Positions 35,197-64,000 of a stretch of DNA of 64,000 bases are shown here, piece after piece. A model generated the notes under the pieces. The model saw nothing but the letters and a program-made list of their open reading frames with translations. It did no database searches and had not been told where the DNA came from. Position numbers and translations under genes: made by a program. Each line of letters starts with the position of its first letter. Position 1 is the stretch's first letter. The stretch is from an uncultured Spirochaetales bacterium (GTDB lineage Bacteria; Spirochaetota; Spirochaetia; Sphaerochaetales; Sphaerochaetaceae): assembly GCA_949289305.1 (NCBI GenBank), contig CASENB010000008.1, positions 87,307 to 151,306 on the forward strand, in the 5' to 3' direction.

Positions 35197-35229
35197 AGAA
35201 TATATCGTTTATTTTTTGTAGGTGATTAC

Positions 35230-38279: not shown

Positions 38280-38335
38280 GGCTTAAGGATATAACAAAAG
38301 TTTTTTTATCTCAATTGAATTGCATGGACTCTTCA

Positions 38336-39229: not shown

Positions 39230-39268
39230 AATCAGATTTTAAGTCGTAATGGATCAAAGTTGTCAAGT

Positions 39269-40141: not shown

Positions 40142-40238
40142 AATCTCCCCCTTTTCTAGATTTAATACATCTATATAGAAAGAAAAGACATAAATATTAA
40201 ATATTTCTAAAACAGGCTTTTTTTGCTATAAATTTCTT

Positions 40239-41722: not shown

Positions 41723-41779
41723 GCCTTCATTATATTCAATTTTGTTTTTTCTTTGCACCTTTTCTGCTAAGCTTTAACC

Positions 41780-44377: not shown

Positions 44378-44380
44378 ATT

Positions 44381-45880: not shown

Positions 45881-45881
45881 T

Positions 45882-46969: not shown

Positions 46970-47455
46970 AATGAGCGTACTTCCGCATTTAGCACTTAAA
47001 TGCTCTATTTTAAACTCAATCATAACAAGATGGTCAAATCCGCTTTCTATCTCTTTAGCTTTAGCGTCCTTGCTGACGCTAAAGCAATAACGCTCTGAGA
47101 GCTTATGTAGCGCCTCAAGTTTCTTTTTCTCATCTTCGATTATGGAAATTTTTCCAAAGGCTATCACGCTTTTATATGCTGTTGTAAATTTTTCTGGAAT
47201 CACATCATCTTTCGTAACAACAGAAAACGAAGCCTTGTCAGAATACCTTATAGAGTCTATCTTATGTCCTTCTATTGCAGAGTGAAAATATATTGCGCAT
47301 TCACTCTCATCAAAGACATAGCTAAGCGGAAGAGAGTACGGATAACCATCATCCGATAAAAGGGCAAGAGTTCCATGACTGGCCTCTTTAAGAATAGCAA
47401 TGGCTTCCTCTTTTCCCAGCTCCTGTTTAAAGCGTCTCATTTTTCTAAAGCTCAT
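46961..47455 (-). CDS. Pyridoxamine 5'-phosphate oxidase-family flavoprotein (NimA-like)
   Basis: 164 aa. MRRFKQEL...EAIAILKEASHGTLALLSDDGYPYSLPLSYVF is the typical split-barrel N-terminus. Confidence 0.75.
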   Translation of the reverse strand: MSFRKMRRFKQELGKEEAIAILKEASHGTLALLSDDGYPYSLPLSYVFDESECAIYFHSAIEGHKIDSIRYSDKASFSVVTKDDVIPEKFTTAYKSVIAFGKISIIEDEKKKLEALHKLSERYCFSVSKDAKAKEIESGFDHLVMIEFKIEHLSAKCGSTLISN

Positions 47456-47931
47456 AAAGTCTTCCTAAGATACACCATTCCCTCTTTTACAGGATTGTCA
47501 TTATACTTTTCTATCTCGTAAAAACCGTTTTTCTTATATAGTTTGATTGCGCTCTCAAGATTTGAAAGCGTATCTAATAAGATCTCTGTTGCACCCGACA
47601 CTTTTGCATCGTTTAGGATCTTGTGAAGCATTATATTTGAAATTCCATAACCTCTGAACTTCGGCCTGAGGTACATTCTTTTTAATTCGGCAGTCCTCTC
47701 ATCAAGCTTTTTAAAACCCACAGTTCCAGCAACTTCACCATCTACAAGGACAAGATAGAGCTTGCCAGAATTGTATTTGACATCAGGGTGCTCCTCTTCC
47801 TCGCTGTAATGCTGAAGTTCAAAGTAGGCCTTGAAATCGCTATTTGAGTTTATCAAAAGCTCTGTGTACTCTCTGAAAACCTCTTTTAAATCATCAAGCC
47901 TATCGGAGGCATTGATAAAACGAACATCCAT
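47452..47931 (-). CDS. GNAT-family N-acetyltransferase
   Basis: 159 aa. Acetyl-CoA motif A: LRPKFRGYGISNIMLHKIL. Confidence 0.8.
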   Translation of the reverse strand: MDVRFINASDRLDDLKEVFREYTELLINSNSDFKAYFELQHYSEEEEHPDVKYNSGKLYLVLVDGEVAGTVGFKKLDERTAELKRMYLRPKFRGYGISNIMLHKILNDAKVSGATEILLDTLSNLESAIKLYKKNGFYEIEKYNDNPVKEGMVYLRKTL

Positions 47932-50504: not shown

Positions 50505-50549
50505 CCTTCAAAAAGGGCTTTTGCCAATTTCCCCTAAAGGGGAAGAATT

Positions 50550-51353
50550 TTACTCGATATTTTTCAAGATAAAAGAACCGTCAGTACTGTTTTCATCTGG
50601 ACAGGAGAAGTAGAAAGAACTTAAAATTGACGGCCCAGTAACTAGAAATGCCATTGACTTAACGCCATTTTCATCCAAGAAGAACGTAAATGATGTAATT
50701 GCTTCAATAGTAAGTCCGAACGCCCTAGTATCAACATAGCTCACGGTCTTTAATGGAGAGACTTCCATGCTCTTAAGTATCCAGCGGCTCGGGTCTATCG
50801 AGCTCTTATTGAAAAGTTCTGCATTCTCTCTATAGATAACGGCCTGATCGCTTGTCCCTTTATAGTCTACCCATGAGACAGGCGTATTTAAATCAAAAAG
50901 AGGAAAAAGACGAAGTTCCCTTCCGTCTTTCGATTTCATATATATCTCATTGTACTGTCCGTAAGTCTCATCCTCTACGGTCTTGACTTTGAGCCGAATC
51001 TCTCGCACTCTGCCTTTATTGTCCTCGTCCGTAGTGTTTACCCAAAGATATATGCCGTCCCAGTTGGTTGTTTTAAAACTATCAAACTCCGCACTTATGT
51101 CTGAATTATCAGCACGTCTATATGCAATGGAAAGAGCATAATCTGTATTTGATTTTAAATTAGTCAGTTCGTAACAAGTTGCAGTTCCGTCAAGTCGAGC
51201 TTGGAATATATTATCTATATAGATATCTATATAGACGGTATCTTCAGGCGCTTTAAAATTTAGTTCAGCACCATACGGACTTGGGCTAAGCTCTAGCGCA
51301 TATGCCGTACTTAGCAAAAAAAACATAATTAATACAAATGCAGCCTTTTTCAC
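50550..51353 (-). CDS. Hypothetical secreted protein with an N-terminal FN3-like segment
   Basis: 267 aa. Signal peptide MKKAAFVLIMFFLLSTAYA. The segment YELTNLKSNTDYALSI resembles the FN3 strand F/G signature. Confidence 0.5.
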   Translation of the reverse strand: MKKAAFVLIMFFLLSTAYALELSPSPYGAELNFKAPEDTVYIDIYIDNIFQARLDGTATCYELTNLKSNTDYALSIAYRRADNSDISAEFDSFKTTNWDGIYLWVNTTDEDNKGRVREIRLKVKTVEDETYGQYNEIYMKSKDGRELRLFPLFDLNTPVSWVDYKGTSDQAVIYRENAELFNKSSIDPSRWILKSMEVSPLKTVSYVDTRAFGLTIEAITSFTFFLDENGVKSMAFLVTGPSILSSFYFSCPDENSTDGSFILKNIE

Positions 51354-51393
51354 TTGCCTTGCTCCTTACTCAAATTAACTGTATCCTTAAAGT

Positions 51394-52095
51394 ATGAAAA
51401 AATTGTTAACATCAATACTATTATTAACTCTTATTCTCATATCTTCATGTCAAGTTAGTGAAAATATTACCATCAAAGATAATATTAGCACTAGTGAGAC
51501 AAATATCGAAGTATACGATTTTTTTATTGCAGTTCTGAATGACTTCTCTCAATTTATGGACAATCCTAACGATGCTTCAATTGTAAATACCGCTTTTAGC
51601 GATTTTGCGAACGGCTTAGCTTCAAACGAAAACAACAGCAACGTCGTCTATATGGCAAACGAAGGAAATAAATACTACCTGTCATTCGATTTTGTAAGCA
51701 TTAGCAATGCACTCTCTTCAATTTCTGCAAGCGACAACACAATATTAAAACAGGATGGAAATTCGATTGACTTCTATCTGGATATCAACAACTATCCAGA
51801 ATTAAAGGCCATGATACCATTTTTATCAGATCCTAACTTTGAAGTATATGGACCAGAGTACAATCAGGGCATGAGCGAAGCAGATTACCTCGACATGATC
51901 TTCTATCTGCTTGGAGAGGAAGCTCCGGATGCAATCAGAAACAGTACGATTGAAATCAACTTCGCTCTCCCAGGAACAATAACAGAGAGTTCCGGGGTAA
52001 CCGTCACTGGGGATAATACATGCACATACTCATTCCCCCTAATCGATTTTCTTCTCCTAAACGAGCCTATGAGCTTCTCTATAACTTGGAATTGA
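51394..52095 (+). CDS. Hypothetical lipoprotein
   Basis: 233 aa. Signal plus lipobox LILISSC. No recognisable domain. Confidence 0.55.
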   Translation: MKKLLTSILLLTLILISSCQVSENITIKDNISTSETNIEVYDFFIAVLNDFSQFMDNPNDASIVNTAFSDFANGLASNENNSNVVYMANEGNKYYLSFDFVSISNALSSISASDNTILKQDGNSIDFYLDINNYPELKAMIPFLSDPNFEVYGPEYNQGMSEADYLDMIFYLLGEEAPDAIRNSTIEINFALPGTITESSGVTVTGDNTCTYSFPLIDFLLLNEPMSFSITWN

Positions 52096-52424
52096 AAGCA
52101 TTAGATTACATAGTTGCAATCATATTCATATCTCTAATCGTCCTTTCTTTCTTCTTATATGAAGGAGGGGACGATGTTATTATCAATGCAAATGGCATTG
52201 AATACAGCTATCCTTTAAGCGAAGACAGGACGTTTTCTGTCATCGGCCCTCTTGGCGAGACGACAATAGAAATAAAGGACGGCTCTGTCAGGATAATAGA
52301 CTCCCCATGCCCAAACAAGACCTGTTTGAACACCAGTTTGGGAAGAAGCATTTGCTGCCTGCCAAACAGGGTGCTTATCACAATAAGCGAAAAAGATGGA
52401 GATATAGATGCCTATGCTTACTAA
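52092..52424 (+). CDS. NusG domain II-containing protein (formerly DUF1312)
   Basis: TM helix followed by GETTIEIKDGSVRIIDSPCPNKTC...ICCLPNRVLI, the conserved Cys-containing beta-domain of this family. I prefer the in-frame TTG at 52092, which overlaps the upstream stop, to the ATG at 52020 inside the previous gene. Confidence 0.65.
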   Translation: MKALDYIVAIIFISLIVLSFFLYEGGDDVIINANGIEYSYPLSEDRTFSVIGPLGETTIEIKDGSVRIIDSPCPNKTCLNTSLGRSICCLPNRVLITISEKDGDIDAYAY

Positions 52425-53454
52425 AAGGATTATTAATCTTTCTGCATTATCGCTTTTTCTCGCACTTATCGAAAACTTCATCCCTCGCCCACTTCCATTT
52501 TTTCGTCTCGGGCTGGCAAATATTTCAATGCTTATCGCATTAAAAGATTTTAATGCAAAAGAATACTTTACGCTCTCCGTTTTTAAAGCGCTATCGACAT
52601 CTTACATATCAGGAACATTAATATCGCCATTCTTCTTACTTTCGCTTTCTCAAAGCATAGCAAGTTCTTTTCTTATGTATGTCTCGTATAAAACGCTAAA
52701 AGAGAAAATTAGCGTCTACGGGATTTCCCTGATCGGCGCACTCACATCTACGATAGTCCAGATAGCACTGGCAAGTCTTATGCTTGGAAGAGGAATATTC
52801 TCGTTTTTATCCATAATGCTAATTATTTCATTCTGTTCCGCTTTCATAACGGCATTCATCTCAAAGAAGATAAATTTCGATTATAATAAAGACACAAAAG
52901 ACAATGGCAGAACTGATATAAAAAAAGGATATGGCATAATTCTTTTTTTAATAATACTGATCGCAGTTTCTTTAGAAAACATCGCTGCTCTAATCACCGC
53001 ATTCGTCTTCACTATAATTATGAACTGCCATATGGGAGGGAAGTTCAAGCCATTAAATTACATTGTTTTAATTTTAGTCTGCACTTTCAGCGCACTCATT
53101 ACCCCCAGAGGGGAAGTGCTGGCCAGAATATTCGGTTTTCCAATCACTGCGCTTTCATTATCTGAAGGAATTCAAAACGGGTTAAGGCTGTCGCTTTTAA
53201 TGGCGCTTAGCCTAAGCCTATCAAAATACCTCATAAAAGGAGGCGCCATATCATCAATATTAAATAAGTTTTTCATCATGGAAAGTTCTTTCTATACAAA
53301 AGATGGCGCTTTATTAGCTAGAGTGAAGTATGCTCTTAATGCAGATGAAGTAGATAATGTGAAAGAAAACTCTTATAATGTACCATACTTCACTTCAATT
53401 TTAATTTTAATTGTTTTAAGTGCACTCAAACTCATAGAAATCTCATTTTTATAA
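52408..53454 (+). CDS. Gx transporter family protein (heptaprenyl diphosphate synthase component I-like, PF07456-type)
   Basis: 348 aa polytopic. N-terminal LIENFIPRPLPFFRLGLANI hallmark. Usual genomic partner of NusG-II proteins. Confidence 0.65.
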   Translation: MPMLTKRIINLSALSLFLALIENFIPRPLPFFRLGLANISMLIALKDFNAKEYFTLSVFKALSTSYISGTLISPFFLLSLSQSIASSFLMYVSYKTLKEKISVYGISLIGALTSTIVQIALASLMLGRGIFSFLSIMLIISFCSAFITAFISKKINFDYNKDTKDNGRTDIKKGYGIILFLIILIAVSLENIAALITAFVFTIIMNCHMGGKFKPLNYIVLILVCTFSALITPRGEVLARIFGFPITALSLSEGIQNGLRLSLLMALSLSLSKYLIKGGAISSILNKFFIMESSFYTKDGALLARVKYALNADEVDNVKENSYNVPYFTSILILIVLSALKLIEISFL

Positions 53455-53540
53455 GTGGTTTTATTGTATTTTTTCTAATGCATTGACATTCGACAAAGAA
53501 TTATATAAATTTTTATCGATAACTAATAAGGAGAACCAAA

Positions 53541-56201
53541 ATGGCTGAAGTTATTGAACAGTTTGCTGGAGAGAAAGAACTCCAGGAGATGATTGAAAAA
53601 GTAAAGAGAGCCCAGCTTGTATACGCAAACTATCCACAAGAGAAAGTTGACGCTATCTTCCGTGCGGCATCCATTGCAGCAAACAATGCGCGTATCAGCC
53701 TTGCTCAAGATGCTGTAGAAGAGACAGGAATGGGCATTGTTGAGGATAAGGTTATAAAGAACCACTTCTCAGCCGAATACATCTTCCATAAATACAAGGA
53801 TGACAAGACATGCGGGATTATAGAGAACGATCCGGCATTCGGAATTAAAAAGATCGCAGAGCCAAAAGGCGTTATCTGCGGTATCATACCAACGACAAAC
53901 CCAACAAGTACGGCAATCTTTAAATCCCTTATTGCGCTTAAGACAAGAAACGCAATTATTTTCAGCCCGCACCCAAGGGCAAAGAAATGCACATGCGACG
54001 CTGCAAGAATCGTACTTGAGGCAGCTGTAGCTGCAGGTGCTCCAGAGAACATTATCGGCTGGATCGAAGAGCCTTCAATGGAAAAGACAAATTACCTTAT
54101 GCACCATCCGCATGTAAATCTTATTCTTGCAACAGGCGGACCAGGAATGGTTAAGTCAGCATACTCATCAGGAAAGCCTGCAATCGGAGTTGGAGCCGGC
54201 AACACGCCTGCCCTACTCGACAAGAGCTGCAATATAAAGATGGCTGTAGCATCCATTTTAATGAGTAAGACTTTCGACAATGGTGTTGTTTGTGCTTCCG
54301 AGCAGTGCATTATCGCACACAAGGACATCTATCAGGAAGTAAAGAAGGAGCTCAAAGAACAGGGAGCACATTTCCTGACAAAAGATGAGATGGCAAAACT
54401 GAGCCCGATCATCCTTGATCCTCAGCGCGGATCTGTAAACCCGAAGATCGTAGGACAGCCTGCATATAAGATTGCAGAGATTGCAGGATTCTCAGTACCA
54501 AAGAATACGAAAGTATTAATCGGAGAGGTTAAGAAGGTAGCAGCAGAAGAGCCGTTTGCACACGAAAAGCTCTCTCCTGTTCTTGGAATGTATTCATGCG
54601 ACAACTTCGGCGAAGGAGCTATGATGGCAGCTCAGCTTATCGCACTTGGCGGTTTCGGACACACATCAGTTCTATATATCGACGAAAAAGAGCAGGATAA
54701 GATCGACACGTACGGAAAGACTGTTAAGACAAGCAGAGTCCTGATCAACATGCCTGCAAGCCAGGGCGCTATCGGAGACATCTACAACTTCCGTCTAGAA
54801 CCATCGCTTACCCTCGGTTGCGGATCATGGGGCAACAACAGCATCAGCGAAAACGTAGGCCCTAAGCACTTACTTAACATCAAGACAGTAGCAGAGAGGA
54901 GGGAGAACATGCTCTGGTTCAAGTTGCCGCCAAAAATCTATTTCAAGTATGGCTGTCTGCCTGTAGCTCTTCAGGAGCTGGAAGGAAAGAAGAGAGCATT
55001 CATCGTTACAGACAGTTTCCTCTTCTCCACAGGCATGATCGATCGAATTCAGGACTCCCTTGCTCAGATCGGAGTTGAGACGGAAGTATTCCATCAGGTA
55101 AAACCAGATCCGACGCTTGGAACGATTAACACTGCAATGCAGCTCGTTAACGCTTATAAGCCTGATGTAATCATCGCTGTCGGAGGTGGTTCTCCAATGG
55201 ATGCAGCAAAGATCATCTGGCTGCTTTACGAGCATCCAGAAGTACAGTTCGAAGGACTTGCCCTACGCTTCATGGATATCAGAAAGAGAATCTACGCATT
55301 CCCTAACATGGGTAAGAAAGCAGAACTCGTATGTATTCCAACCACAAGCGGAACAGGAAGCGAAGTAACGCCATTTGCTATCATCACGGATGAAAAGACC
55401 GGAATGAAGTGGGCTATTGCAGACTATGCATTAACTCCAAGCATGGCTATCGTAGACAGCGAACTTGCAATGGGACAGCCAAAAGGACTTACTGCAAGCT
55501 GCGGTATCGACGTACTGACACACGCACTTGAGGCTCTTGCATCAAGCATGAGTACAGACTATACGAACTCCCTGTCTCTTGAGGCTGCAAGAATCATCTT
55601 CAAATACCTGCCGCAGGCATATGAGGATGGAACGAATAAGAAAGCTAGAGAGAAAGTTCATGATGCATCAACTATGGCAGGCATGGCATTTAGCAACGCG
55701 TTCTTAGGTCTATGTCACTCAATGGCGCATAAGCTTGGAGCTCAGTTCCATGTACCACACGGAATGGCAAACGCTCTGCTTCTAACGAACATCATCCGCT
55801 TCAATGCGAATGACAATCCAACAAAGCAGGCTTCATTCCCTCAGTACGAATTCCCATCTGCAATCAGCAGATATGCAAGAGTTGCCGACTATATCTCAAC
55901 TCCTGTAAACAACGAGAAGAATACCGATTTGATGGATAGCAGAAATGCTAAGACATTGGAAGAAAAGGTAGAGATCCTCATTGATGGAATTGAAAAGCTC
56001 AAGAAGCAGCTTAACGTTCCATCTTCCATTCAGGAATGGGGCGTAAGCGAAGAGGACTTCCTCGCTGTAGTCGATGATCTTTCAGTGAAAGCATTTGACG
56101 ATCAGTGCACAGGATCAAACCCACGCTATCCGCTTATAAGCCAGATCAAGCAGCTCTATCTAGATTCATTCTACGGCAGAGCATGGAAAGAAGAAGTTTA
56201 A
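53541..56201 (+). CDS. adhE: Bifunctional acetaldehyde-CoA/alcohol dehydrogenase
   Basis: 886 aa. N-terminal ALDH domain (catalytic Cys in FDNGVVCASEQ) and a C-terminal Fe-ADH domain (GGGSPMDAAK, HSMAHKLG). TTGACA promoter and AAGGAGA RBS upstream. Confidence 0.95.
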   Translation: MAEVIEQFAGEKELQEMIEKVKRAQLVYANYPQEKVDAIFRAASIAANNARISLAQDAVEETGMGIVEDKVIKNHFSAEYIFHKYKDDKTCGIIENDPAFGIKKIAEPKGVICGIIPTTNPTSTAIFKSLIALKTRNAIIFSPHPRAKKCTCDAARIVLEAAVAAGAPENIIGWIEEPSMEKTNYLMHHPHVNLILATGGPGMVKSAYSSGKPAIGVGAGNTPALLDKSCNIKMAVASILMSKTFDNGVVCASEQCIIAHKDIYQEVKKELKEQGAHFLTKDEMAKLSPIILDPQRGSVNPKIVGQPAYKIAEIAGFSVPKNTKVLIGEVKKVAAEEPFAHEKLSPVLGMYSCDNFGEGAMMAAQLIALGGFGHTSVLYIDEKEQDKIDTYGKTVKTSRVLINMPASQGAIGDIYNFRLEPSLTLGCGSWGNNSISENVGPKHLLNIKTVAERRENMLWFKLPPKIYFKYGCLPVALQELEGKKRAFIVTDSFLFSTGMIDRIQDSLAQIGVETEVFHQVKPDPTLGTINTAMQLVNAYKPDVIIAVGGGSPMDAAKIIWLLYEHPEVQFEGLALRFMDIRKRIYAFPNMGKKAELVCIPTTSGTGSEVTPFAIITDEKTGMKWAIADYALTPSMAIVDSELAMGQPKGLTASCGIDVLTHALEALASSMSTDYTNSLSLEAARIIFKYLPQAYEDGTNKKAREKVHDASTMAGMAFSNAFLGLCHSMAHKLGAQFHVPHGMANALLLTNIIRFNANDNPTKQASFPQYEFPSAISRYARVADYISTPVNNEKNTDLMDSRNAKTLEEKVEILIDGIEKLKKQLNVPSSIQEWGVSEEDFLAVVDDLSVKAFDDQCTGSNPRYPLISQIKQLYLDSFYGRAWKEEV

Positions 56202-56221
56202 CTTCAACGACTATCATAAAG

Positions 56222-56250
56222 CCCACGCAAGAAACTGCGTGGGTTTTTCT
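56222..56250 (+). terminator. Rho-independent terminator of adhE
   Basis: CCCACGCA (56222..56229), loop AGAAAC, TGCGTGGG (56236..56243), then TTTTTCTTT. Confidence 0.85.
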
Positions 56251-56384
56251 TTAAAATAATCATTAGCATATTATAAATTATACGTAATTTTTATTTCCGT
56301 ATTAGGAATAATAATTTTAATTTTTAATTTTATATATCAATATTTTTCTTAGCTTTTAAATCTTTTTTGTCTTACAATATAAGC

Positions 56385-58439
56385 ATGGATAAAAAATTAG
56401 AATCATTATTTACACCTTGGCACATTGGAAAGTGCGAAATAAAAAACAGGATCGTTCTAACTAGCATGGGAGGAACGGATCTTTTCGGATGGATGGAGAA
56501 AAACCATTTCGATAAGGAAGGCGCTAACTTCATACTAAGCGTAGCAAAGAATAACGTCGGCCTTGTTCTACCTGGCTGCCAGCCCGTGCTGAACCCGATG
56601 TTAGGACAGTGGCTTCATAAGAATAAGAAGATGTTTAAAGACCTTGGGGACTGGATGCCGACATTCCATGAGACCGGGGCAAAACTGTTCGTTCAGCTGA
56701 CAGCAGGATTCGGAAGGTCTTTTCCAATAAGCAAGATGATGGAAGCTCTTCATACGACACCTATCATAAGAACGCTTGCAAAACCTGTCATGAATTTCGA
56801 CAGAATTACTGCAACGGCGTCTGCCTGCCCTAACAGGTGGTCTGACAAGGTTCCATCGAGAGAAATGACGAAAGACGAGATAAAAGCGATTATAAACTCA
56901 TTCGCTGAGAGCTCCGCCCTACTCCAGGATGCAGGAGTAGACGGGGTTGAGATTCACGCCGTTCATGAAGGATACGTTCTTGATCAGTTCGCACTTAAAT
57001 ATATAAACAAGAGAAGCGATGAATACGGAGGATCGCTTGAGAACAGATACCGTTTCGCAATCGAGATAGTCGAAGCAATAAAAAATAAGTGCGGAAAAGA
57101 TTTTCCAGTCTCCCTGCGCTACAGCGTAGTGTCAAAAACAAAAGGACTAAGGCAGGGCGCACTGCCGGGAGAAGAATATACGGAAGTCGGAAGGGACATG
57201 GAGGAATCTGAAGCAGCTGTAAAACTTCTCGAGAACGCGGGATACGACATGCTTAACTGCGACAACGGCACATATGACGCATGGTACTGGGCGCACCCTC
57301 CTATCTATATGCCGGAAAATTGCAATCTTGAAGATGTCGAGCACATAAAGAACTTTGTAAACATTCCTGTGGTATCGGCAGGAAGGATGGACCCGTATGT
57401 GGCGGCAGAAGAAATTGGAAAAGGCAAGATTGATGCGGTCGGTTTTGCACGTCAGTTCCTTGCAGATCAAGAATGGGTAACGAAACTCATAAACGACAGG
57501 AAAGAAGACATAAGGCCATGCATACTCTGCCATAACGCATGCTTCACTATGGCGCACTACAATGGAGTGCCGAACGATCAGGATCTCTCTGACAGCCTAA
57601 ACATGTCGCGCTGTGCGGTAAACGCAGAGACGATGCAGAGCAAGAAGCACTATATCAAGAAGACCGACAGACCTAAGAGCGTTGCGATAATCGGAGGGGG
57701 AATAGGCGGAATGGAAGCTGCTAGAGTTTTAAAACTCAGAGGACATCAGCCGATAATCTATGAGAAGACTAATATTCTTGGAGGCACATTCATTCCTGCA
57801 AGCAGCGAAAGCTATAAAGGAAGGCTGCGAGATCTTCTTGCTTGGTATAGAAGAAAGATGGAAGAATTAAATATTGAGATTCATTTCAATAGCAAAGTTA
57901 ATAATATTGATAGCTTAAAAGAAGATGCAATAATAATAGCAACAGGAGCAAAGGCCAAGAAGATCAATATCCCAGGTTTTGATAAGACGATAGAAGCTTG
58001 CGATTACTTAAACGGAAAAAAGAATGCAGAAGGAGAGATTGTAATTTTAGGCGGCGGCTTAACAGGCTGCGAAATAGCCTACGATCTTGCGTTAAGCGGA
58101 AAGAACGTAAGTATTGTCGAGATGAAAGATGATATCATAGCACAAAAGGGCGTATGTCTTGCAAACAGCTCTTATCTAAGAGAATGGTTTGCTCTCAATG
58201 GCACAAAGATATATCTATCTAGTTGTGTTAAAGAGATTAAGGATGGTTTCGTCGTCATAGAGAATAAGGGAGGGGAGAAAAAAGAAATTAAAGCAGATAC
58301 TGTAATCAGTTCGCTTGGCTACAATCCAGATCCGATAAAAGGAGGATCTAAGAAGACATACCTTGTCGGTGATTGTCTAAAGGTTGGAAATCTTAGAAGC
58401 GTAATCTGGAGAGCATACGAAGTAGCAATGAAAATATGA
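56385..58439 (+). CDS. Enoate reductase / 2,4-dienoyl-CoA reductase-family flavoprotein (OYE FMN domain + 4Fe-4S + FAD/NAD(P) domain)
   Basis: OYE-like N-terminus (IKNRIVLTSMG, HAVHEGYVLDQF), Cys cluster CILCHNAC...C, and Rossmann GGGIGGMEAA and GGGLTGCE motifs. I prefer the ATG at 56385 to the TTG at 56367. Confidence 0.85.
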   Translation: MDKKLESLFTPWHIGKCEIKNRIVLTSMGGTDLFGWMEKNHFDKEGANFILSVAKNNVGLVLPGCQPVLNPMLGQWLHKNKKMFKDLGDWMPTFHETGAKLFVQLTAGFGRSFPISKMMEALHTTPIIRTLAKPVMNFDRITATASACPNRWSDKVPSREMTKDEIKAIINSFAESSALLQDAGVDGVEIHAVHEGYVLDQFALKYINKRSDEYGGSLENRYRFAIEIVEAIKNKCGKDFPVSLRYSVVSKTKGLRQGALPGEEYTEVGRDMEESEAAVKLLENAGYDMLNCDNGTYDAWYWAHPPIYMPENCNLEDVEHIKNFVNIPVVSAGRMDPYVAAEEIGKGKIDAVGFARQFLADQEWVTKLINDRKEDIRPCILCHNACFTMAHYNGVPNDQDLSDSLNMSRCAVNAETMQSKKHYIKKTDRPKSVAIIGGGIGGMEAARVLKLRGHQPIIYEKTNILGGTFIPASSESYKGRLRDLLAWYRRKMEELNIEIHFNSKVNNIDSLKEDAIIIATGAKAKKINIPGFDKTIEACDYLNGKKNAEGEIVILGGGLTGCEIAYDLALSGKNVSIVEMKDDIIAQKGVCLANSSYLREWFALNGTKIYLSSCVKEIKDGFVVIENKGGEKKEIKADTVISSLGYNPDPIKGGSKKTYLVGDCLKVGNLRSVIWRAYEVAMKI

Positions 58440-58455
58440 AAACACAAAAACAAAG

Positions 58456-58492
58456 GATGCACAGTTCAATACGATCTGTGCATCTTTTTTTT
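58456..58492. terminator. Bidirectional intrinsic terminator between convergent genes
   Basis: GATGCACAG (58456..58464) / CTGTGCATC (58476..58484) form a 9-bp stem. T8 follows on the plus strand and an A-rich tract precedes it, giving a T-rich tract on the minus strand. Confidence 0.8.
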
Positions 58493-58509
58493 ATTGAATA
58501 AAAATTATA

Positions 58510-58959
58510 TTATCTTTCGACTGTTACTGTTCCGTCTTCGTCAACTGTAATTTTATCACCAGTTTGAACATAGGATAGAAATTCATCCCCAAGATTATCT
58601 ATGGTAGGCATACTCTGAGTAGTCCATACATCGGCTAGTATCGCCCCTGCTGCCGCAAGAGAGTCTATCTCTTTTGAAAATAGCAGAGCTGCAGGCTGGC
58701 GATCCATACATGCGGCACAATACAATACAAGGCCTCCTGTTGTGGATCCTATCGTCTGAGGAAGACAGAGAACTTTATGAGCCATTTCTTTTTTATAGAT
58801 GTCGGCATTGTTCTGATCCGAGCATTTTCCTTTCTTATCGCCGAACATTAGAGAATGCTGGTAACTTGCAAGAGTGTTAAAACCACCTTTGGAAACCAAA
58901 GCCTCGCTAGATACTTTTCCTTTTACAACGACTCTTCCCTTAAACACTTTAATGCTCAT
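58510..58959 (-). CDS. Aconitase X swivel-domain subunit (DUF126)
   Basis: 149 aa. N-terminal GRVVVKGKVSSEALVSKGGFN and LCLPQTIGSTTG match the AcnX small subunit pattern. Overlaps the large subunit by 4 nt. Confidence 0.7.
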   Translation of the reverse strand: MSIKVFKGRVVVKGKVSSEALVSKGGFNTLASYQHSLMFGDKKGKCSDQNNADIYKKEMAHKVLCLPQTIGSTTGGLVLYCAACMDRQPAALLFSKEIDSLAAAGAILADVWTTQSMPTIDNLGDEFLSYVQTGDKITVDEDGTVTVER

Positions 58960-60224
58960 ACGCTTCCTCCTGTTATAAGACAGAGAATATCATCCTCCTG
59001 ATAGTATCTTGCGCTTGTGTATGTCCTCAGTTTATTAGAACACGTTATTACAGGCATTGAAGCGCACATCGGATTATTCATATACATTAACGGACAGATG
59101 TAAGAAAGGATAACGCCGCAATCCTTGAGCGTTTTGACTTCAGAACTGTTAGCCATAGCTTTCAGAACATCAGGCGCTGCCGTCATGACAGTTGGTATTT
59201 CAACCTTCTTCTTCCCGTTTTTAACAAGCTCATTTGCAATTCTGCGGCTCCATGAGATTATCTGATTTTTAGATAGATGCGGACAACCAATAAAGCAGAG
59301 CTTAGGCTTTGCATTCTTGTCTTTCCAAATAATAGGATAATTCCGCTCAGTCTCTTTTAGGACATCATCATCTATTATGTATGTCTTATAGCCTTCTTTC
59401 AAAAGGCTCCTTCCAAGCCTTTTTGCCTCTGGCGTAAGATTCTCAATATGATAAAGGCCGACAGCTCCATTGGATGCAGTTGCAGCTCCGAAATCCTTAA
59501 AGTATGATTTAGCATCATCATCCAGAGTGCTGAAGTACTTATCCATACCGACGACAAACGGAACATCCTCCATAACTTTCATCCCGATTGCAGACCCAAG
59601 AAGCTGCGCCTCAGGCTTTTTTGTCGTCCTGACTTCAATCAGCCAATCCGCTTTCCTTCCCTCATCTGTTAAAAGCCCAAAGTAAGGCACACAGCCGACA
59701 ATCGATCCGAAAAGATCTAGAATTCCGCTGTTTCTATTGCATCTTGCTCCTAAGATAGAGTTCGCATAAACGACTGCAGAACTCTCAGCCCATGAGAGTA
59801 TCTCACCTTCTTTGGGCGTGTTGCCAACCTCATCCAAGTAACAAGTACACGTATAAGCATCCTTATCGAGAAGTCCGAGCTTCAAAAGCTGTTTATCATA
59901 ATCATTCTGTTTTGAATACATTACAGAAAAGAAAATGTTCTGTATGAAATTCTTCGGAACATTCTTATCCAATGGTCTTGGATCTACGGAGAAATGCTGA
60001 CTTGAAATCGCATTAGCCTCTATAAGCTGATCCATAAGATCATATACCGGTTTCATAACGGAAAGGCCGAAGCTTGTTACAAGGTGTCCGCATTCGCTTG
60101 TGATATCTACCATGCGATCAGATCCGAAAGTCTCTCCATACATTATGAGGGTCTTCATGATCTTGGCCTTTACTTCTCCTTCTTTTCCGCTCAGTATGTC
60201 TTCTTGCCGTTTTGTTAAAGTCAT
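58956..60224 (-). CDS. Aconitase X catalytic-domain subunit (DUF521)
   Basis: Start set at the ATG at 60224 (MTLTKRQEDILSGKEGE..., AGAGGA RBS), the typical DUF521 N-terminus. The track start at 60317 would run through the rubredoxin terminator. Confidence 0.7.
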   Translation of the reverse strand: MTLTKRQEDILSGKEGEVKAKIMKTLIMYGETFGSDRMVDITSECGHLVTSFGLSVMKPVYDLMDQLIEANAISSQHFSVDPRPLDKNVPKNFIQNIFFSVMYSKQNDYDKQLLKLGLLDKDAYTCTCYLDEVGNTPKEGEILSWAESSAVVYANSILGARCNRNSGILDLFGSIVGCVPYFGLLTDEGRKADWLIEVRTTKKPEAQLLGSAIGMKVMEDVPFVVGMDKYFSTLDDDAKSYFKDFGAATASNGAVGLYHIENLTPEAKRLGRSLLKEGYKTYIIDDDVLKETERNYPIIWKDKNAKPKLCFIGCPHLSKNQIISWSRRIANELVKNGKKKVEIPTVMTAAPDVLKAMANSSEVKTLKDCGVILSYICPLMYMNNPMCASMPVITCSNKLRTYTSARYYQEDDILCLITGGSV

Positions 60225-60289
60225 AATTAATTCCTCTTTTTTTATGATAACACAAGAGGAAATGGAAAATAAAACTATATTTGCTGATG

Positions 60290-60314
60290 AAAAAAAAAGC
60301 GGCTCAATGGCCGC
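60290..60314 (-). terminator. Rho-independent terminator of the mini-rubredoxin gene
   Basis: On the minus strand, GCGGC-cattga-GCCGC is followed by T9 (plus-strand A-run 60290..60298). Confidence 0.6.
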
Positions 60315-60322
60315 CAATAAAA

Positions 60323-60439
60323 TTAGTCTTCCTGCTTCTCAAATGCATCAGCACCTGCTCCGCAAAGAGGACATACGAAATCTTCAGGAAGAGAATCTCC
60401 CTCATATTCATAACCGCATAGAGTGCAAACCCACTTCAT
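60323..60439 (-). CDS. 38-aa rubredoxin-like protein (short-loop rubredoxin)
   Basis: My own translation: [38 protein letters not shown]. It has two rubredoxin knuckles (V-C-x2-C-G-Y and C-P-x-C-G), an AAGGAGA RBS 7 nt upstream and its own terminator. Too short for the ORF track. Confidence 0.8.
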
Positions 60440-60540
60440 AGTTATATCTCCTTATTAATTAATATATGTTGAGTATAAACTATTTGACACATATTTGCAC
60501 GAGTTTTCATTAGTGCCATAATTGTAGAAAGGGAGAATAT

Positions 60541-61635
60541 ATGGAATACAGAACAAACAAACGCACAGGCGATAAGATAAGCATAATCGGATTAGGCGCT
60601 TCATACATAGGATCAAAAAGCGAAAAAGATGCTCTTGAGACAATAGAATACGCACTTGAAAACGGTATCAACTACTTTGATCTTGCATCGGGACATGCTG
60701 CGACATTTCCATACTACGGAAAGGCATTTAAAGGAGTAAGGGACAAGGTGATGTTTCAGATACATTTTGGCGCAGACTATACGACAGGCGTATATGGATG
60801 GAGCCTTGATCTAGAGACGATAAAAAGATCTGTCTCATGGCAGCTTGAAAATTTAAAGACCGATTATATCGACTATGGTTTTATCCACTGCATTGACGAA
60901 GTAAAAGACTTTGAGACATATGAGAAGAATGGCGTATTGGATTACATTCTCTCATTAAAAGAGAAAGGCATGGTAAAGCATATAGGACTTTCATCCCATA
61001 CCCCGAAAGCTATCAACAAGGTATTGGATTTAGGCATTGTAGATATGCTTATGTTCTCAGTTAATCCGCTTTATGATGACGGACTTGGAGAGTATGCAAG
61101 AGGAAACAGAGACGAAAGGAACGTATTGTATCTTAGATGCGAAAAGGAAAATGTAGGCATATCTTGTATGAAACCGTTCTCTGGAGGACAGCTATTAGAT
61201 GCAGCAAAGTCTCCTTACTCAGAGGCGTTAAGTAAAGTTCAATGCATATCATATGCGCTTTCCCGCCCATCTGTTTTGACAGTACTTCCAGGCACTTCAA
61301 GCGTCAAAGAATTGAAAGAGTGTCTTGAATATTTAAATGCGACTGCAGAAGAAAAAGACTTTTCAGTCATAGCAGGACTAAAAAAGAGAAGCTATAGGCT
61401 GTCATGCACATATTGCCAGCACTGCCATCCATGCCCTAAAGGCCTAGATATCGCACTAATAAACAAATACTACGACCTGTCTCTTCTTGGAGATGATATG
61501 GCAAAGGAACATTATCTAAGCCTTGAAAAGAAAGCAGGAGACTGCATAAGCTGCGGACACTGTGACAGACGCTGTCCATTCCATGTAAAGCAATCAGAGA
61601 GAATGAGCGAGATAGAGAACTATTTTGGGCAATAA
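60541..61635 (+). CDS. Aldo/keto reductase with C-terminal 4Fe-4S ferredoxin-like domain
   Basis: 364 aa. AKR barrel (GINYFDLASGH, GLSSH) and C-terminal CTYCQHCHPCP and CISCGHCDRRCP motifs. Confidence 0.85.
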   Translation: MEYRTNKRTGDKISIIGLGASYIGSKSEKDALETIEYALENGINYFDLASGHAATFPYYGKAFKGVRDKVMFQIHFGADYTTGVYGWSLDLETIKRSVSWQLENLKTDYIDYGFIHCIDEVKDFETYEKNGVLDYILSLKEKGMVKHIGLSSHTPKAINKVLDLGIVDMLMFSVNPLYDDGLGEYARGNRDERNVLYLRCEKENVGISCMKPFSGGQLLDAAKSPYSEALSKVQCISYALSRPSVLTVLPGTSSVKELKECLEYLNATAEEKDFSVIAGLKKRSYRLSCTYCQHCHPCPKGLDIALINKYYDLSLLGDDMAKEHYLSLEKKAGDCISCGHCDRRCPFHVKQSERMSEIENYFGQ

Positions 61636-61686
61636 GAACAATGCGTGCTCATTTAAACCGTTTTTGCACTATTTTCTCCCTCAGTG

Positions 61687-62976
61687 CTAAATAATCTGAT
61701 CTTCACATTCAAGCATTCTATAATATATATCTCTGAGATTGCTTCTTTTATTAAGACAGTTTATTTCAGAGTATTGATTAGTCTTGTTATCATCGTTTTT
61801 TTTCTCTTCTTTATTAAGAATAGCAAAACGTATGCTTCCATGCTCAAGACTTTGAAGGGGTCTAAGATTATGAGCTGTAAAGATAAACTGTCCTATTGCT
61901 TTTTCTTCAATTGCTAATAAAATTGAGCTTAAAAGATGTTCAAAAATTCCTTCATCTAGTTCGTCAAAGACCAACATGTAAGAAGGAGAATGAAACAAAA
62001 TAGGAAGATAACAAGAAAGATAAAGCAGCTTTTTAGTTCCATATGATTCATTTGCAAAAGGCAAGGAAATGCCATTTTTTTCAACATATAAATCGATATT
62101 ATTCTTTTCATTTTTAATAAATAATTTTGTGTTAGGAAGCAAAGTCTCAAGAGTATTTCCAAGGTGAAAGATATGCCGAGAAAGTACTTCTAAATCGGAT
62201 TGTTTGCACTCTGTGATCAAATTATCTTTATTTATTATGCGACCATTCTTCAGATCAAGAAAATAAGGATTCTCAGTAAATGGCACAAGAGGAATTAGCA
62301 TCTCTTGCTCCAAATCGCTTCTTTGCATCTCTTTTTCCAAATCACAATAAAGCACATGCAGAAATTTATTTATATTGTTAGCAAACAGATTGAATGCAAC
62401 TCTCGCCTCTTGTGACTTAGAGATAGGAAAAGCCTCATTGAATTGTAACAATAACGACATGTCGTCACTTGGAGAGAAACAATTCGATAATAATCCATCA
62501 TTATATATCTCTTTTGCTGATAGCTGACAAATAATTTTTCCTTCTCCATTAAGGACTTGAAATAATTCGCTTTCTATCTTTAAAGGATTCTCGCTTGTAA
62601 TAGAGAAAGAATATCTAATGCTTTTTCTAAGAGGACCTTCAGGTGTGCAGCAATGAAAAATATATGACAATTTCGCCTCTTTAGCACCAAGACGAACATA
62701 TTTCTTTACTGGCAATTCTTCGAACAATTGCTTTCTCCATTGCGATTTTATTTTAGTACTATTAACATTGAGAATATTTCTTAGAAGCTTAAGAGCTTCA
62801 ACAATTGTAGTTTTTCCAGACCCGTTTGGGCCGTATAGACCAATAACATTGGATTTCCAATATTCTTCCTCGCTCCAATCTCGTTTTAAACGTGAGAATA
62901 CGATACATCCATATTTAACACACATAAAATCATTTAATGTAATTGCTGCAAGTCTGAGAAAATTAATTTTACTCAT
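61687..62976 (-). CDS. ABC-type AAA ATPase of the AAA_15/AAA_21 (OLD/AriA/AbiLi/RloA-like) kind
   Basis: 429 aa. Walker A GLYGPNGSGKTT about 50 aa from the N-terminus, a long non-conserved insert, then Walker B LVFDELDEGI, D-loop and H-loop FTAHN near the C-terminus. ATG overlaps the upstream stop (ATGA). Confidence 0.75.
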   Translation of the reverse strand: MSKINFLRLAAITLNDFMCVKYGCIVFSRLKRDWSEEEYWKSNVIGLYGPNGSGKTTIVEALKLLRNILNVNSTKIKSQWRKQLFEELPVKKYVRLGAKEAKLSYIFHCCTPEGPLRKSIRYSFSITSENPLKIESELFQVLNGEGKIICQLSAKEIYNDGLLSNCFSPSDDMSLLLQFNEAFPISKSQEARVAFNLFANNINKFLHVLYCDLEKEMQRSDLEQEMLIPLVPFTENPYFLDLKNGRIINKDNLITECKQSDLEVLSRHIFHLGNTLETLLPNTKLFIKNEKNNIDLYVEKNGISLPFANESYGTKKLLYLSCYLPILFHSPSYMLVFDELDEGIFEHLLSSILLAIEEKAIGQFIFTAHNLRPLQSLEHGSIRFAILNKEEKKNDDNKTNQYSEINCLNKRSNLRDIYYRMLECEDQII

Positions 62977-63806
62977 TTAATCTCTCCGTTTTTATTTGTT
63001 TTTGAAGAAAGTTTCTCAAGCGCATCAAGAACAAGCCTGAAATTAGAAGATCTCTTCAGCGTCCTAAAAGTTCCCTCTTCCATGATATATTGCCATGATC
63101 TTTCATATGTTGGTTTACAAGGAAGAAGATTCGAAAAAAATTCTTTAATTGCTTTTGGTCCATTTGAAGCAATTTCATTACACCATTTTACAGCTAGATA
63201 GTCTTTTTCCTTTTGTTCAGCCTGTCTTATATTCACAGTCACATGTTCAAGATTAGTTGACATATAGAAAATTGAGATTGGAACATCTACTGTCTCGTTA
63301 TCAACACGTAGAGTGATATCATGGCCTTGGAGAATGTAATTTATATTGCGTCTTTTTCTACTATTTCTATCTATAGCATCGGCTAAGGCATCCCTCTTTT
63401 TATCGTATTTCACTAATATTTCAGTCTCTGTATAAGTGAGGTTTGATGTCGGATTTGGGTCGGAGTTTAATCTTATAGAAGAATCGGGAATGCATACTCC
63501 ATCCATATCGGTAAGAAATAAAACTGCTGTAATATCTTTCAGCTTTATAGGATTGTCGGACTTGCTAAACCAAGCATCAAGGTGGATTTCAATTTCTTCC
63601 GAAATAAAATCCAAACAATCCTGTTCTAATCTGTAAATTCCTCTTTTTTCATCCCTTTTCGTCAGCCTATCTCCAATTGTATAAATCACTTTTATTTTAG
63701 CAGAGCCTATATTAGGAAGTACAGTCGTATACGTTTGTAGGATTTTATCAATAACTTTAAAATCCGTCGGCCCTTCTACTATAGCTATTACAACTGGACG
63801 TTTCAT
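62973..63806 (-). CDS. TOPRIM-like (RloB/DUF4435/OLD-nuclease-like) protein
   Basis: 277 aa. N-terminal beta-strand plus IVEGPTD (TOPRIM Glu), LFLTDMDGV (DxD), and YMSTNLEHV, which resembles the RloB SNPxFE segment. Family-level assignment is from memory only. Confidence 0.55.
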   Translation of the reverse strand: MKRPVVIAIVEGPTDFKVIDKILQTYTTVLPNIGSAKIKVIYTIGDRLTKRDEKRGIYRLEQDCLDFISEEIEIHLDAWFSKSDNPIKLKDITAVLFLTDMDGVCIPDSSIRLNSDPNPTSNLTYTETEILVKYDKKRDALADAIDRNSRKRRNINYILQGHDITLRVDNETVDVPISIFYMSTNLEHVTVNIRQAEQKEKDYLAVKWCNEIASNGPKAIKEFFSNLLPCKPTYERSWQYIMEEGTFRTLKRSSNFRLVLDALEKLSSKTNKNGEIK

Positions 63807-64000
63807 TTTTCATCCCCATAATTTCTATATGCAGCTAGGCTGAACGCATTGGCTATCCTGTCAGAATCAATGTCATAATTAAACGGCGGATTCTCATCAT
63901 CTTCTCCGACAGTTAGCAATCGATAGTACTTATCGCGCATATTCGTTCTTTTTTTCACACATCTCATAGTAGAATAAAGCTTCTTCTGTTCTACTGTCGT
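63803..64000 (-). CDS. Hypothetical protein, C-terminal part only (gene continues beyond the window, or starts at the ATG at 63967)
   Basis: My own translation of the open minus frame: ...TTVEQKKLYSTMRCVKKRTNMRDKYYRLLTVGEDDENPPFNYDIDSDRIANAFSLAAYRNYGDEK*. The stop overlaps the TOPRIM-like start (ATGA). Confidence 0.45.
   Translation of the reverse strand, partial: TTVEQKKLYSTMRCVKKRTNMRDKYYRLLTVGEDDENPPFNYDIDSDRIANAFSLAAYRNYGDEK

What the first reader, a model, noticed from the sequence alone, without database searches (positions are those of the whole stretch)
61687..64000. AT-rich three-gene module with 4-nt overlaps (unknown ORF, TOPRIM/RloB-like protein, ABC-type AAA ATPase): candidate defence system with non-canonical gene order
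Seen in the sequence:
- Three minus-strand ORFs are chained by ATGA stop/start overlaps at 63803..63806 and 62973..62976.
- The last ORF has Walker A GPNGSGKTT, a long insert, then Walker B LVFDELDEG and an H-loop TAHN.
- The middle ORF has IVEGPTD and LTDMDG, the Glu and DxD of a TOPRIM fold.
- Two 60-nt lines I counted here have 17 and 23 G+C out of 60, against roughly the mid-40s percent for a line inside adhE. This suggests foreign origin.
- The segment directly follows ordinary redox metabolism genes.

Established knowledge: a split or fused ATPase plus TOPRIM is the architecture of OLD nucleases, Gabija GajA, PARIS (AriA/AriB), AbiL (AbiLi/AbiLii) and the RloA/RloB pairs in R-M loci.

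Inference: in the versions I know the ATPase gene comes first and the system has two genes. Here the TOPRIM gene precedes the ATPase, and a third coupled ORF of unknown function lies upstream and runs off the window. This may therefore be an undescribed variant rather than a textbook member.
Basis: partly seen in the sequence, partly recalled or inferred. Interest (0 to 1): 0.75.

Follow-up and report, generated by a model that had tools for sequence, protein, structure and literature searches.

The report
PARIS/AbiL-like defence cassette, two ATPases
The window ends inside a horizontally acquired cassette of at least five genes, built on the familiar "ABC ATPase plus TOPRIM-like nuclease" anti-phage pair in its normal gene order, so the "unusual order" was a cut-off artefact, but the second ATPase copy and two uncharacterised genes make it an undescribed variant.

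Summary
The sequence observations hold: three minus-strand ORFs with ATGA overlaps, intact ABC-ATPase motifs, VEGPTD and LTDMDG in the middle protein, and GC 0.334 against 0.401 for the rest of the window.

An identical 258-kb metagenome scaffold extends the window. On it, the "unknown upstream ORF" is a 442-aa ABC ATPase (A1), a 27%-identical paralogue of the downstream ATPase (A2). The order is therefore ATPase then TOPRIM-like protein Y, as in AbiL and PARIS. In 96 of 100 related loci an ATPase lies directly upstream of Y.

The full unit is: promoter, small hydrophobic peptide (38-42 aa), X (285 aa, no detectable relatives), A1, Y, A2. It recurs in four lineages and four genomic contexts, and all five genes are under purifying selection. 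Here a diverged ~200-bp duplication of the neighbouring reductase gene's 3' end brackets it, which marks an insertion.

Y matches no curated model. The TOPRIM assignment rests on family-invariant DxD and near-invariant Glu, plus convergent sub-threshold hits (DUF4276, Toprim_4, PDB 2p62). Both structure predictions failed.

Most likely function: PARIS/AbiL-like abortive-infection defence. Verdict: new variant of a known kind, moderate interest.

The parts
61687..62976 (-). ATPase2 (A2), 429 aa. ABC-type ATPase and second paralogue; last gene of the cassette.
   Evidence: Pfam AAA_21 1.7e-15 (above cut-off), SMC_N and AAA_23. PADLOC AbiLi 3.9e-24 and AriA 4.3e-16. Walker A GPNGSGKTT, signature-like SYG, Walker B DELDEG and H-loop FTAHN are conserved across the A2 clade. 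pN/pS is about 0.38 against lineage L006.
62973..63806 (-). Y, 277 aa. TOPRIM-like putative nuclease effector, translationally coupled to both ATPase genes.
   Evidence: No Pfam, NCBIfam or PADLOC hit on its own. The exhaustive HMMER search found 489 relatives. In the 69-member alignment G12, D100 and D102 are invariant, and E11, G103, N185 and H188 are conserved in at least 90%. The family consensus hits DUF4276 (1.9e-4), Toprim_4 (3.4e-3) and OLD-like_TOPRIM (0.086), all below cut-off. The family profile hits PDB 2p62 at E 0.0017 across the EG..DxD region. 2p62 is also the top HHpred hit listed for lactococcal AriB (PMC11381338).
63803..64000 (-). C-terminal 65 codons of ATPase1 (A1, 442 aa in full). 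This is the cognate ABC ATPase upstream of Y; the rest lies beyond the window end.
   Evidence: The frame is open to the window edge. The full gene is at L001 8676..10004, on a scaffold with 0 mismatches to the window over 11,028 nt. Pfam AAA_23 and AAA_21 are above cut-off; PADLOC AbiLi 5.8e-26 and mad3 1.2e-19. It is a paralogue of A2.
61410..61626 (.). Right copy of a ~200-bp direct repeat, formed by the 3' end of the aldo/keto reductase gene. Its partner lies just upstream of the cassette promoter, outside the window (L001 7238..7438).
   Evidence: the repeat finder D1 (132 nt, 92%) and D2 (63 nt, 76%). The alignment shows a 16-nt indel in the left copy. Coordinates were converted with w = 73807 - p, which the exact identity verifies.

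Best explanation
The window's last 2.3 kb is the 3' part of a mobile cassette of about 4.7 kb with at least five genes. Its order is: promoter, small hydrophobic peptide (38-42 aa), X (285 aa, no detectable relatives), ABC ATPase A1, TOPRIM-like protein Y, ABC ATPase A2.

The core, A1 then Y, is an AbiL/PARIS-type pair. By analogy with PARIS (inferred, not shown here), the ATPase oligomer holds the TOPRIM-like nuclease inactive. It senses a phage-derived trigger and then, depending on ATP, releases or activates Y. Y cleaves a nucleic acid (tRNA or DNA), and the infection is aborted.

A2 is an old duplicate that keeps all catalytic motifs. It most likely forms mixed ATPase assemblies with A1 or adds a second trigger specificity. 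X and the peptide are conserved accessory parts of unknown role, possibly a sensor and a membrane-acting effector or regulator.

Shown here: gene content, gene order, paralogy, conservation, purifying selection, the insertion signature, and the mobile-element and defence-island contexts. Inferred: nuclease activity of Y, the anti-phage role and the activation mechanism.
For: Extension of the window:
- An identical scaffold extends the window.

ATPases:
- A1 and A2 are ABC ATPases whose best PADLOC model is AbiLi.
- They are 27% identical.
- The A1, A2 and two-gene ATPase clades are each monophyletic, with all catalytic motifs conserved.

Y:
- The family has an invariant DxD (D100, D102) and a Glu (E11) conserved in at least 90% of 69 members.
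- Sub-threshold hits converge on TOPRIM-clan models and on the 'B' partners of ABC ATPases: DUF4276, Toprim_4, OLD-like_TOPRIM, RloB, HEC-01B, mad4, AbiLii and PDB 2p62.
- An ATPase is immediately upstream of Y in 96 of 100 loci.

Cassette:
- X-A1-Y-A2 recurs in four lineages and four unrelated genomic contexts, one of them next to a NikA-like relaxosome gene.
- The peptide ORF and the promoter region are conserved.
- pN is far below pS for all five genes.
- The cassette has lower GC than at least one flank in all four lineages, and than both flanks in three.
- Here it is bracketed by a duplicated target-gene 3' end.

Context:
- A SoFic-type Fic gene lies next to it (9e-43).
- Two-gene relatives sit beside a full Gabija system, beside a type I REase fragment, on Bacillus and Lysinibacillus plasmids, and in phage or viral records.

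Mechanistic precedent:
- PARIS and AbiL (PMC11464382; PMC13064643).
Against: - No experiment exists for this family.
- Y reaches no curated Pfam, NCBIfam or PADLOC threshold.
- The AlphaFold model of Y is poor (pLDDT 54.9), and Foldseek found nothing significant.
- HEC-01, another ABC ATPase + TOPRIM pair to which Y-family members hit weakly, gave no defence in the only published test (bioRxiv 10.1101/2024.01.29.577857).
- The roles of A2, X and the peptide are guesses.
- Many of the 100 loci are near-identical gut-metagenome contigs, so 96 of 100 counts contigs, not independent lineages.
Confidence: 0.6

Rival explanations
1. The cassette is two 'effector-first' pairs, X+A1 and Y+A2. In that case Y's working partner is the downstream ATPase.
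For: All four genes are translationally coupled: a 13-nt overlap and two 4-nt overlaps. The sizes repeat (285/442 and 277/429 aa). A2 is about as distant from the two-gene ATPases as A1 is.
Against: X and Y show no similarity. Every two-gene relative has the ATPase upstream of Y and none downstream (76 loci with enough flank). Two-gene ATPases score slightly closer to A1 than to A2 (for example 6e-31 against 4e-26).
Confidence: 0.1
2. The cassette acts mainly as an addiction or stabilisation module, or as an anti-plasmid module, for mobile elements rather than as anti-phage immunity.
For: Relatives lie on plasmids, near a NikA-like relaxosome gene and conjugal-transfer genes, and in a phage-collection record. 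PARIS itself behaves like a toxin-antitoxin pair (PMC13064643).
Against: In the window and in L003 the cassette sits alone in chromosomal metabolic neighbourhoods with no mobile-element backbone. Relatives co-localise with Gabija, a type I REase fragment and SoFic.
Confidence: 0.15
3. [quoted passage not shown]
For: SMC_N/RecF-type ATPase hits. RecR is a TOPRIM protein (established knowledge).
Against: The family is extremely rare and patchy: 9 clusters for Y and 13 for X among 5.8 billion clusters. It occurs in four different genomic contexts, is AT-rich and shows an insertion scar.
Confidence: 0.03

Closest known systems
AbiL (AbiLi ATPase + AbiLii TOPRIM-like protein) of Lactococcus
   Same: AbiLi is the best PADLOC model for both ATPases and for all two-gene relatives (E 1e-23 to 1e-31). 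The order ATPase then small TOPRIM-like protein is the same, with overlapping genes. A few Y-family members touch the AbiLii model (3 of 69, best 0.0021).
   Different: The window's Y gives no AbiLii hit. The ATPase matches cover only part of the AbiLi profile (about positions 50-280 of 326). The cassette has three further conserved genes: A2, X and the peptide.
PARIS (AriA ABC ATPase + AriB DUF4435 TOPRIM nuclease)
   Same: A split ABC ATPase and a TOPRIM-like effector in the same order. AriA models hit at 4e-16 and 2e-12. The only PDB sequence hit of the Y family, 2p62, is the same structure that lactococcal AriB maps to. PARIS is the best available mechanistic template.
   Different: No DUF4435 or AriB model hit. 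The PARIS structures in the PDB are not detected by the Y profile. The extra genes are absent from PARIS. The trigger and the nuclease substrate are unknown here.
HEC-01 / PDC-M38 / PDC-M12 (PADLOC candidate ABC ATPase + TOPRIM-like pairs) and mad3-mad4 of MADS
   Same: The weak but recurrent hits of Y-family members go to the 'B' partners of these pairs and to mad4 (DUF4276). A1 hits mad3 at 1.2e-19 and also mad8.
   Different: All the B-partner hits are sub-threshold. There is no methyltransferase and there are no other MADS genes. The cassette is not embedded in an Hma system. HEC-01 showed no defence when tested.
OLD-family nucleases and Gabija GajA
   Same: The combination of ABC ATPase and TOPRIM chemistry.
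   Different: In those systems the two domains are fused in one polypeptide, and GajA and class 2 OLD have a UvrD-type helicase partner. Here the proteins are separate and there is no helicase.

Membership tests
TOPRIM fold (protein Y) | A conserved acidic Glu after strand 1 and a DxD after strand 3. | tested here: met
   D100 and D102 are invariant and E11 is at least 90% conserved in the 69-member family alignment. In the low-confidence model E11 ends strand 5-11 and D100 ends strand 92-100.
TOPRIM fold (protein Y) | A significant match to a TOPRIM-clan profile or structure. | tested here: inconclusive
   Only sub-threshold matches were found. Family consensus: DUF4276 1.9e-4 (22 bits against a cut-off of 30.2), Toprim_4 3.4e-3, OLD-like_TOPRIM 0.086. 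Family members: Toprim 4 of 69, OLD-like_TOPRIM 3 of 69, RloB 1 of 69. PDB 2p62 at E 0.0017. AlphaFold pLDDT was 54.9 and the best Foldseek E-value was 0.055.
ABC (SMC/Rad50/OLD-type) ATPase (A1, A2) | Walker A, signature-like motif, Walker B D-E and H-loop, plus family HMM hits. | tested here: met
   AAA_21 and AAA_23 score above the Pfam cut-offs. The motifs are conserved in all A1 and A2 sequences.
AbiL | An AbiLi-type ATPase. | tested here: met
   PDLC02335 AbiLi is the best PADLOC hit for both: 5.8e-26 (A1) and 3.9e-24 (A2). Coverage of the profile is partial.
AbiL | An AbiLii-type partner protein. | tested here: not met
   The window's Y gives no AbiLii hit even at E <= 1. Only 3 of 69 family members hit (best 0.0021), and the L010 homologue hits at 0.003.
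AbiL / PARIS | A two-gene operon with the ATPase first. | tested here: inconclusive
   The order ATPase then Y is met. However, the conserved unit here has at least five genes.
PARIS | AriB with a DUF4435 TOPRIM domain. | tested here: not met
   No DUF4435 or AriB hit for Y or for its family. The only link is indirect, through 2p62.
PARIS | Trigger-induced release of the nuclease and tRNA cleavage. | not testable with these tools
   This needs biochemistry and phage assays.
OLD / Gabija GajA | ATPase and TOPRIM fused in one protein, and for Gabija a UvrD-like GajB. | tested here: not met
   The ATPase and Y are separate proteins, and there is no helicase in the cassette. GajA models hit only weakly (1e-4 to 1e-6).
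RloA/RloB | An RloB (PF13707) protein inside a type I R-M locus. | tested here: not met
   Y gives no RloB hit. One of 69 family members hits at 0.0065. There are no R-M genes in L001.
MADS | mad3/mad4/mad8 together with a methyltransferase and the other mad genes. | tested here: not met
   mad3 and mad8 models hit A1, and mad4 hits a few Y relatives. No methyltransferase or other mad genes lie in or near the cassette.
UDG superfamily (protein X) | Detectable profile or fold similarity to uracil-DNA glycosylases. | tested here: not met
   hhalign of the X family against E. coli Ung and Mug gives probabilities below 1%. There is no Pfam or PDB hit. TDG/MUG appear only at Foldseek ranks 32-48 with E about 1, from a model with pLDDT 43.6.

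The most novel reading that the evidence does not exclude
The cassette (peptide, X, A1, Y, A2) is a distinct, still unnamed multi-component immune system. In this reading the two paralogous ABC ATPases form an obligate mixed sensor complex controlling a new branch of TOPRIM-like nucleases. X, an orphan family, and the conserved 40-aa membrane peptide are both required, for example as a trigger receptor and a second membrane-acting effector. That would make it functionally different from two-gene PARIS and AbiL.
Probability: 0.35. Interest if true: 0.6.

Novelty: new variant of a known kind. Interest (0 to 1): 0.42.

Why it matters
ABC ATPase + TOPRIM pairs (OLD, Gabija, PARIS, AbiL, HEC-01) are one of the most diversified themes in prokaryotic immunity. 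How the ATPase senses infection remains open for most of them.

This cassette offers a natural comparison. The same Y family occurs as a plain two-gene pair, common in human-gut metagenome contigs and on Bacillus plasmids. It also occurs as a rare expanded unit with a second, catalytically intact ATPase paralogue, an orphan protein and a small membrane peptide. Comparing the two forms could show what extra components add to such sensors, for example trigger range, heteromeric regulation or a second effector.

The Y family has 489 representative clusters at E <= 1e-3, no curated model, and 'hypothetical protein' annotation in the RefSeq plasmid records examined. It would be worth adding to the defence-finder libraries.

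Tried and rejected
- **Structure of Y.** AlphaFold2 with the 9-sequence alignment gave pLDDT 54.9. Foldseek against the PDB found nothing significant.
- **Structure of X.** AlphaFold2 gave pLDDT 43.6 and Foldseek was not significant.
- **X as a UDG-superfamily glycosylase.** I considered this because GREAYG, PDVIITQG and DVPHFSG resemble UDG motif A, strand 3 and motif B. hhalign against E. coli Ung and Mug gave probabilities below 1%, so it is not supported.
- **X and Y as paralogues** (a tandem duplication of a pair). BLASTP found no similarity.
- **Profile searches for X.** Searches against PDB, Pfam, PHROGs and PADLOC returned nothing.
- **Word-indexed search with the 69-member Y alignment.** It returned only unnamed proteins with no domains.
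- **Looking for an empty site.** An exact look-up of the reductase protein found only the same scaffold.
- **Cluster look-up for names or accessions.** None were found, so the host organism remains unidentified.
- **Rfam on the whole window.** No hits.
- **First genome scan with A3.** It failed because no stretch was conserved enough. It was repeated with A4.
Full report
**1. Observation**

The three minus-strand ORFs exist as described: 61687..62976 (429 aa), 62973..63806 (277 aa), and a frame open from 63803 to the window edge. The two 4-nt ATGA overlaps are real. The quoted motifs (GPNGSGKTT, LVFDELDEG, TAHN; IVEGPTD, LTDMDG) are in the translations.

GC of 61687..64000 is 0.334, against 0.401 for the rest of the window. 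Among 2314-nt windows (mean 0.401, sd 0.024) it ties for the lowest value with a patch near 41.6 kb. There is no excess of internal promoter-like sites and no terminator-like site, which fits one operon.

**2. What lies beyond the window**

An exact-protein look-up found the same locus on a 258-kb metagenome scaffold (L001). It has 0 mismatches to the window over 11,028 nt. Window coordinate = 73807 minus L001 coordinate.

The ORF that runs off the window is a 442-aa ABC ATPase, A1 (L001 8676..10004). It scores above cut-off on Pfam AAA_23 and AAA_21, and its best PADLOC hits are AbiLi 5.8e-26 and mad3 1.2e-19. It is a paralogue of the downstream ATPase A2 (27% identity, E 1e-26). The two even share a C-terminal N-x-R-D-x-Y-Y-R motif, which is visible inside the window.

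Upstream of A1, overlapping it by 13 nt, is X (285 aa; L001 7831..8688). X has no Pfam, PADLOC, PHROG or PDB match and is unrelated to Y.

Upstream of X is a 40-aa ORF with a strong Shine-Dalgarno sequence and a hydrophobic core.

**3. The unit is conserved and mobile**

X-A1-Y-A2 recurs in four lineages (Y identity 34-70%) and in four unrelated contexts:
- here, between a Fic gene and an aldo/keto reductase;
- between a glycogen phosphorylase gene and dehydrogenase fragments (L003-5);
- next to NikA-like and RadC genes and a giant LRR surface-protein gene (L006-9);
- in a Spirochaetaceae MAG (L010).

The small peptide ORF is present in all four lineages and shares the motif ETA-x6-GTVxxGI. 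The promoter-like region upstream is also conserved. Between the peptide ORF and X there is either a stable hairpin or a 73-aa ORF. The hairpin has different sequences in L001 and L006 but the same stem (z-scores -2.8 and -4.2).

All five genes show pN far below pS in both lineage pairs: pN 0.09-0.27 against pS 0.50-0.79. They are therefore real, selected genes.

The cassette has lower GC than at least one flank in every lineage, and than both flanks in three of the four.

In L001 the cassette is bracketed by a direct repeat of the reductase gene's 3' end. The repeat is 132 nt at 92% identity plus 63 nt at 76%, with a 16-nt indel in the displaced copy. It ends within about 15 nt of the point where similarity to the other lineages begins. 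This is the pattern left when inserted DNA carries a replacement 3' end for its target gene, and it defines the inserted unit as L001 ~7439..12397. No integrase lies inside that unit.

**4. Gene order in the wider family**

A profile of Y searched exhaustively found 489 representative clusters at E <= 1e-3. Scans of genomes, metagenomes and viral contigs fetched about 90 further loci.

Of 100 loci carrying a Y-family gene, 96 have an ABC ATPase immediately upstream on the same strand. Of the other four, two do have an upstream ATPase that fell outside the distance tolerance, one lacks enough upstream flank, and one shows none. Only the 10 loci with X (four lineages) also have an ATPase downstream. 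76 loci with enough downstream flank have none.

Many of these contigs are near-identical, so the count is of contigs, not lineages. The set does include Bacillus thuringiensis and Lysinibacillus plasmids, where RefSeq annotates the pair as 'AAA family ATPase' (or 'ATP-binding protein') followed by 'hypothetical protein', and a record in the phage collection.

The ancestral unit is therefore ATPase then Y, the AbiL/PARIS order. The apparent TOPRIM-first order in the window is a truncation artefact.

In a tree, the A1, A2 and two-gene ATPases form three separate clades, 23-31% identical to each other. The duplication therefore predates the split of the four lineages. Walker A, the SYG/SEG signature, Walker B, the H-loop and the C-terminal motif are intact in both paralogues.

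**5. Is Y a TOPRIM protein?**

Y alone hits nothing. Across 69 diverse relatives, G12, D46, D100, D102, Y125, K201, W238 and N255 are invariant. E11, G103, N148, K151, S183, N185 and H188 are conserved in at least 90%. This is the Glu ... DxD pattern of TOPRIM.

The other evidence converges but stays below threshold:
- The family consensus hits DUF4276 (1.9e-4, 22 bits against a cut-off of 30.2), Toprim_4 (3.4e-3), OLD-like_TOPRIM (0.086) and Toprim (0.26), all over residues ~10-120.
- Individual members hit Toprim (4 of 69), OLD-like_TOPRIM (3) and RloB (1).
- In PADLOC, members hit PDC-M38B, HEC-01B, mad4 and AbiLii.
- The family profile hits PDB 2p62 (PH0156) at E 0.0017, aligning both the VEG and DxD regions. 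Grafakou et al. list 2p62 as the top HHpred hit of lactococcal AriB, a DUF4435 TOPRIM protein (PMC11381338).

The AlphaFold model was poor (pLDDT 54.9 from only nine sequences), and Foldseek was uninformative. In that model the N-terminal strands place E11 and D100 at strand ends, as TOPRIM requires.

I regard the TOPRIM-like assignment as probable but not proven.

**6. Function and mechanism**

Several observations point to an accessory defence role:
- the best matches are to AbiL and PARIS ATPases;
- the partner is TOPRIM-like;
- the distribution is sporadic and associated with mobile elements;
- the cassette shows an insertion scar;
- a SoFic-type Fic gene lies next to it (PADLOC SoFic 9e-43);
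- two-gene relatives sit beside a complete Gabija system (GajA 9e-210, GajB 1e-172), a type I REase fragment and PDC-M04A.

By analogy with PARIS, the ATPase assembly sequesters the nuclease and releases or activates it when a phage trigger appears, which aborts the infection (PMC11464382; PMC13064643). That step is inference.

Three cautions apply. No member has been tested. HEC-01, a related candidate pair, gave no defence in its only test. The roles of A2, X and the peptide are unknown.

**7. Comparison and novelty**

The module works like AbiL and PARIS, but it fails membership on the partner protein: there is no AbiLii, AriB/DUF4435 or RloB hit. It differs from OLD and Gabija (fused proteins, helicase partner) and from MADS (no methyltransferase).

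The two-gene form is an unannotated branch of a known kind. The form with at least five genes, a duplicated ATPase, an orphan protein and a membrane peptide is a new variant of that kind. It is rare: 9 clusters for Y and 13 for X among 5.8 billion.

**8. Verdict**

- Observation: confirmed.
- Interpretation: partly supported. It is a defence-type ABC ATPase/TOPRIM-like module of foreign origin. The 'non-canonical order' and the 'unknown third ORF' are not supported.
- Interest: moderate (0.42). A specialist would not be surprised by another ABC ATPase/TOPRIM variant. The two-paralogue architecture with two orphan components is a tidy, testable system.

Noticed in passing
outside the window: L001 7641..7763 (also L006 7806..7922, L003 7673..7801, L010 4487..4615): A conserved 38-42-aa hydrophobic, Gly-rich peptide ORF with a strong Shine-Dalgarno sequence precedes X in all four cassette lineages. 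It carries the shared motif ETA-x6-GTVxxGI. pN/pS is about 0.17-0.19. It could be a membrane effector or regulator.
   Followed up: partly
outside the window: L001 7760..7835 and L006 7920..8005: A stable hairpin lies between the peptide ORF and X. The stem sequences differ between the two lineages but the stem is kept (MFE -20.7 and -26.4 kcal/mol; z -2.8 and -4.2). L003 and L010 have a 73-aa ORF at this position instead.
   Followed up: partly
window 61410..61626 and L001 7238..7438 (outside the window): A ~200-bp direct duplication of the aldo/keto reductase 3' end (92% and 76% identity, with a 16-nt indel in the displaced copy) brackets exactly the cassette. This is an insertion scar, yet no integrase lies inside the unit.
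   Followed up: yes
outside the window: L001 6109..7128: A Fic/DOC protein (Pfam Fic 4e-22, Fic-like_C 6e-27) matches the PADLOC SoFic single-gene defence model at 9e-43. It lies directly beside the cassette and is also AT-rich (GC 0.343).
   Followed up: partly
outside the window: L001 5224..5959: Two overlapping short ORFs, the first with a weak PDDEXK_2 (PD-(D/E)XK transposase-like) hit. They look like a frameshifted remnant of a mobile-element gene.
   Followed up: no
window 41780..45880: This is the second AT-rich patch of the window (GC ~0.34-0.36). It encodes an 865-aa protein whose sequence reads like an SNF2-family helicase with a long N-terminal extension, directly followed by a 499-aa protein. 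Neither was run against any family library. It may be another accessory or defence-type module.
   Followed up: no
L013 2135..3433 and 8222..9815: In a Clostridia MAG, the two-gene ATPase-Y unit together with an extra AbiLi-like ATPase (383 aa, 8.6e-30) is flanked by near-identical duplicated copies of a two-gene pair (176-aa and 112-aa ORFs). This is another duplication-bracketed insertion.
   Followed up: no
L104 7454..11321 (IMG/VR contig): A complete Gabija system (GajA 8.7e-210, GajB 1.3e-172) lies about 0.7 kb downstream of a two-gene ATPase-Y relative on a viral contig.
   Followed up: partly
window 1..64000: No Rfam family reaches its gathering score anywhere in the window. The host organism could not be identified with the tools left.
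   Followed up: no
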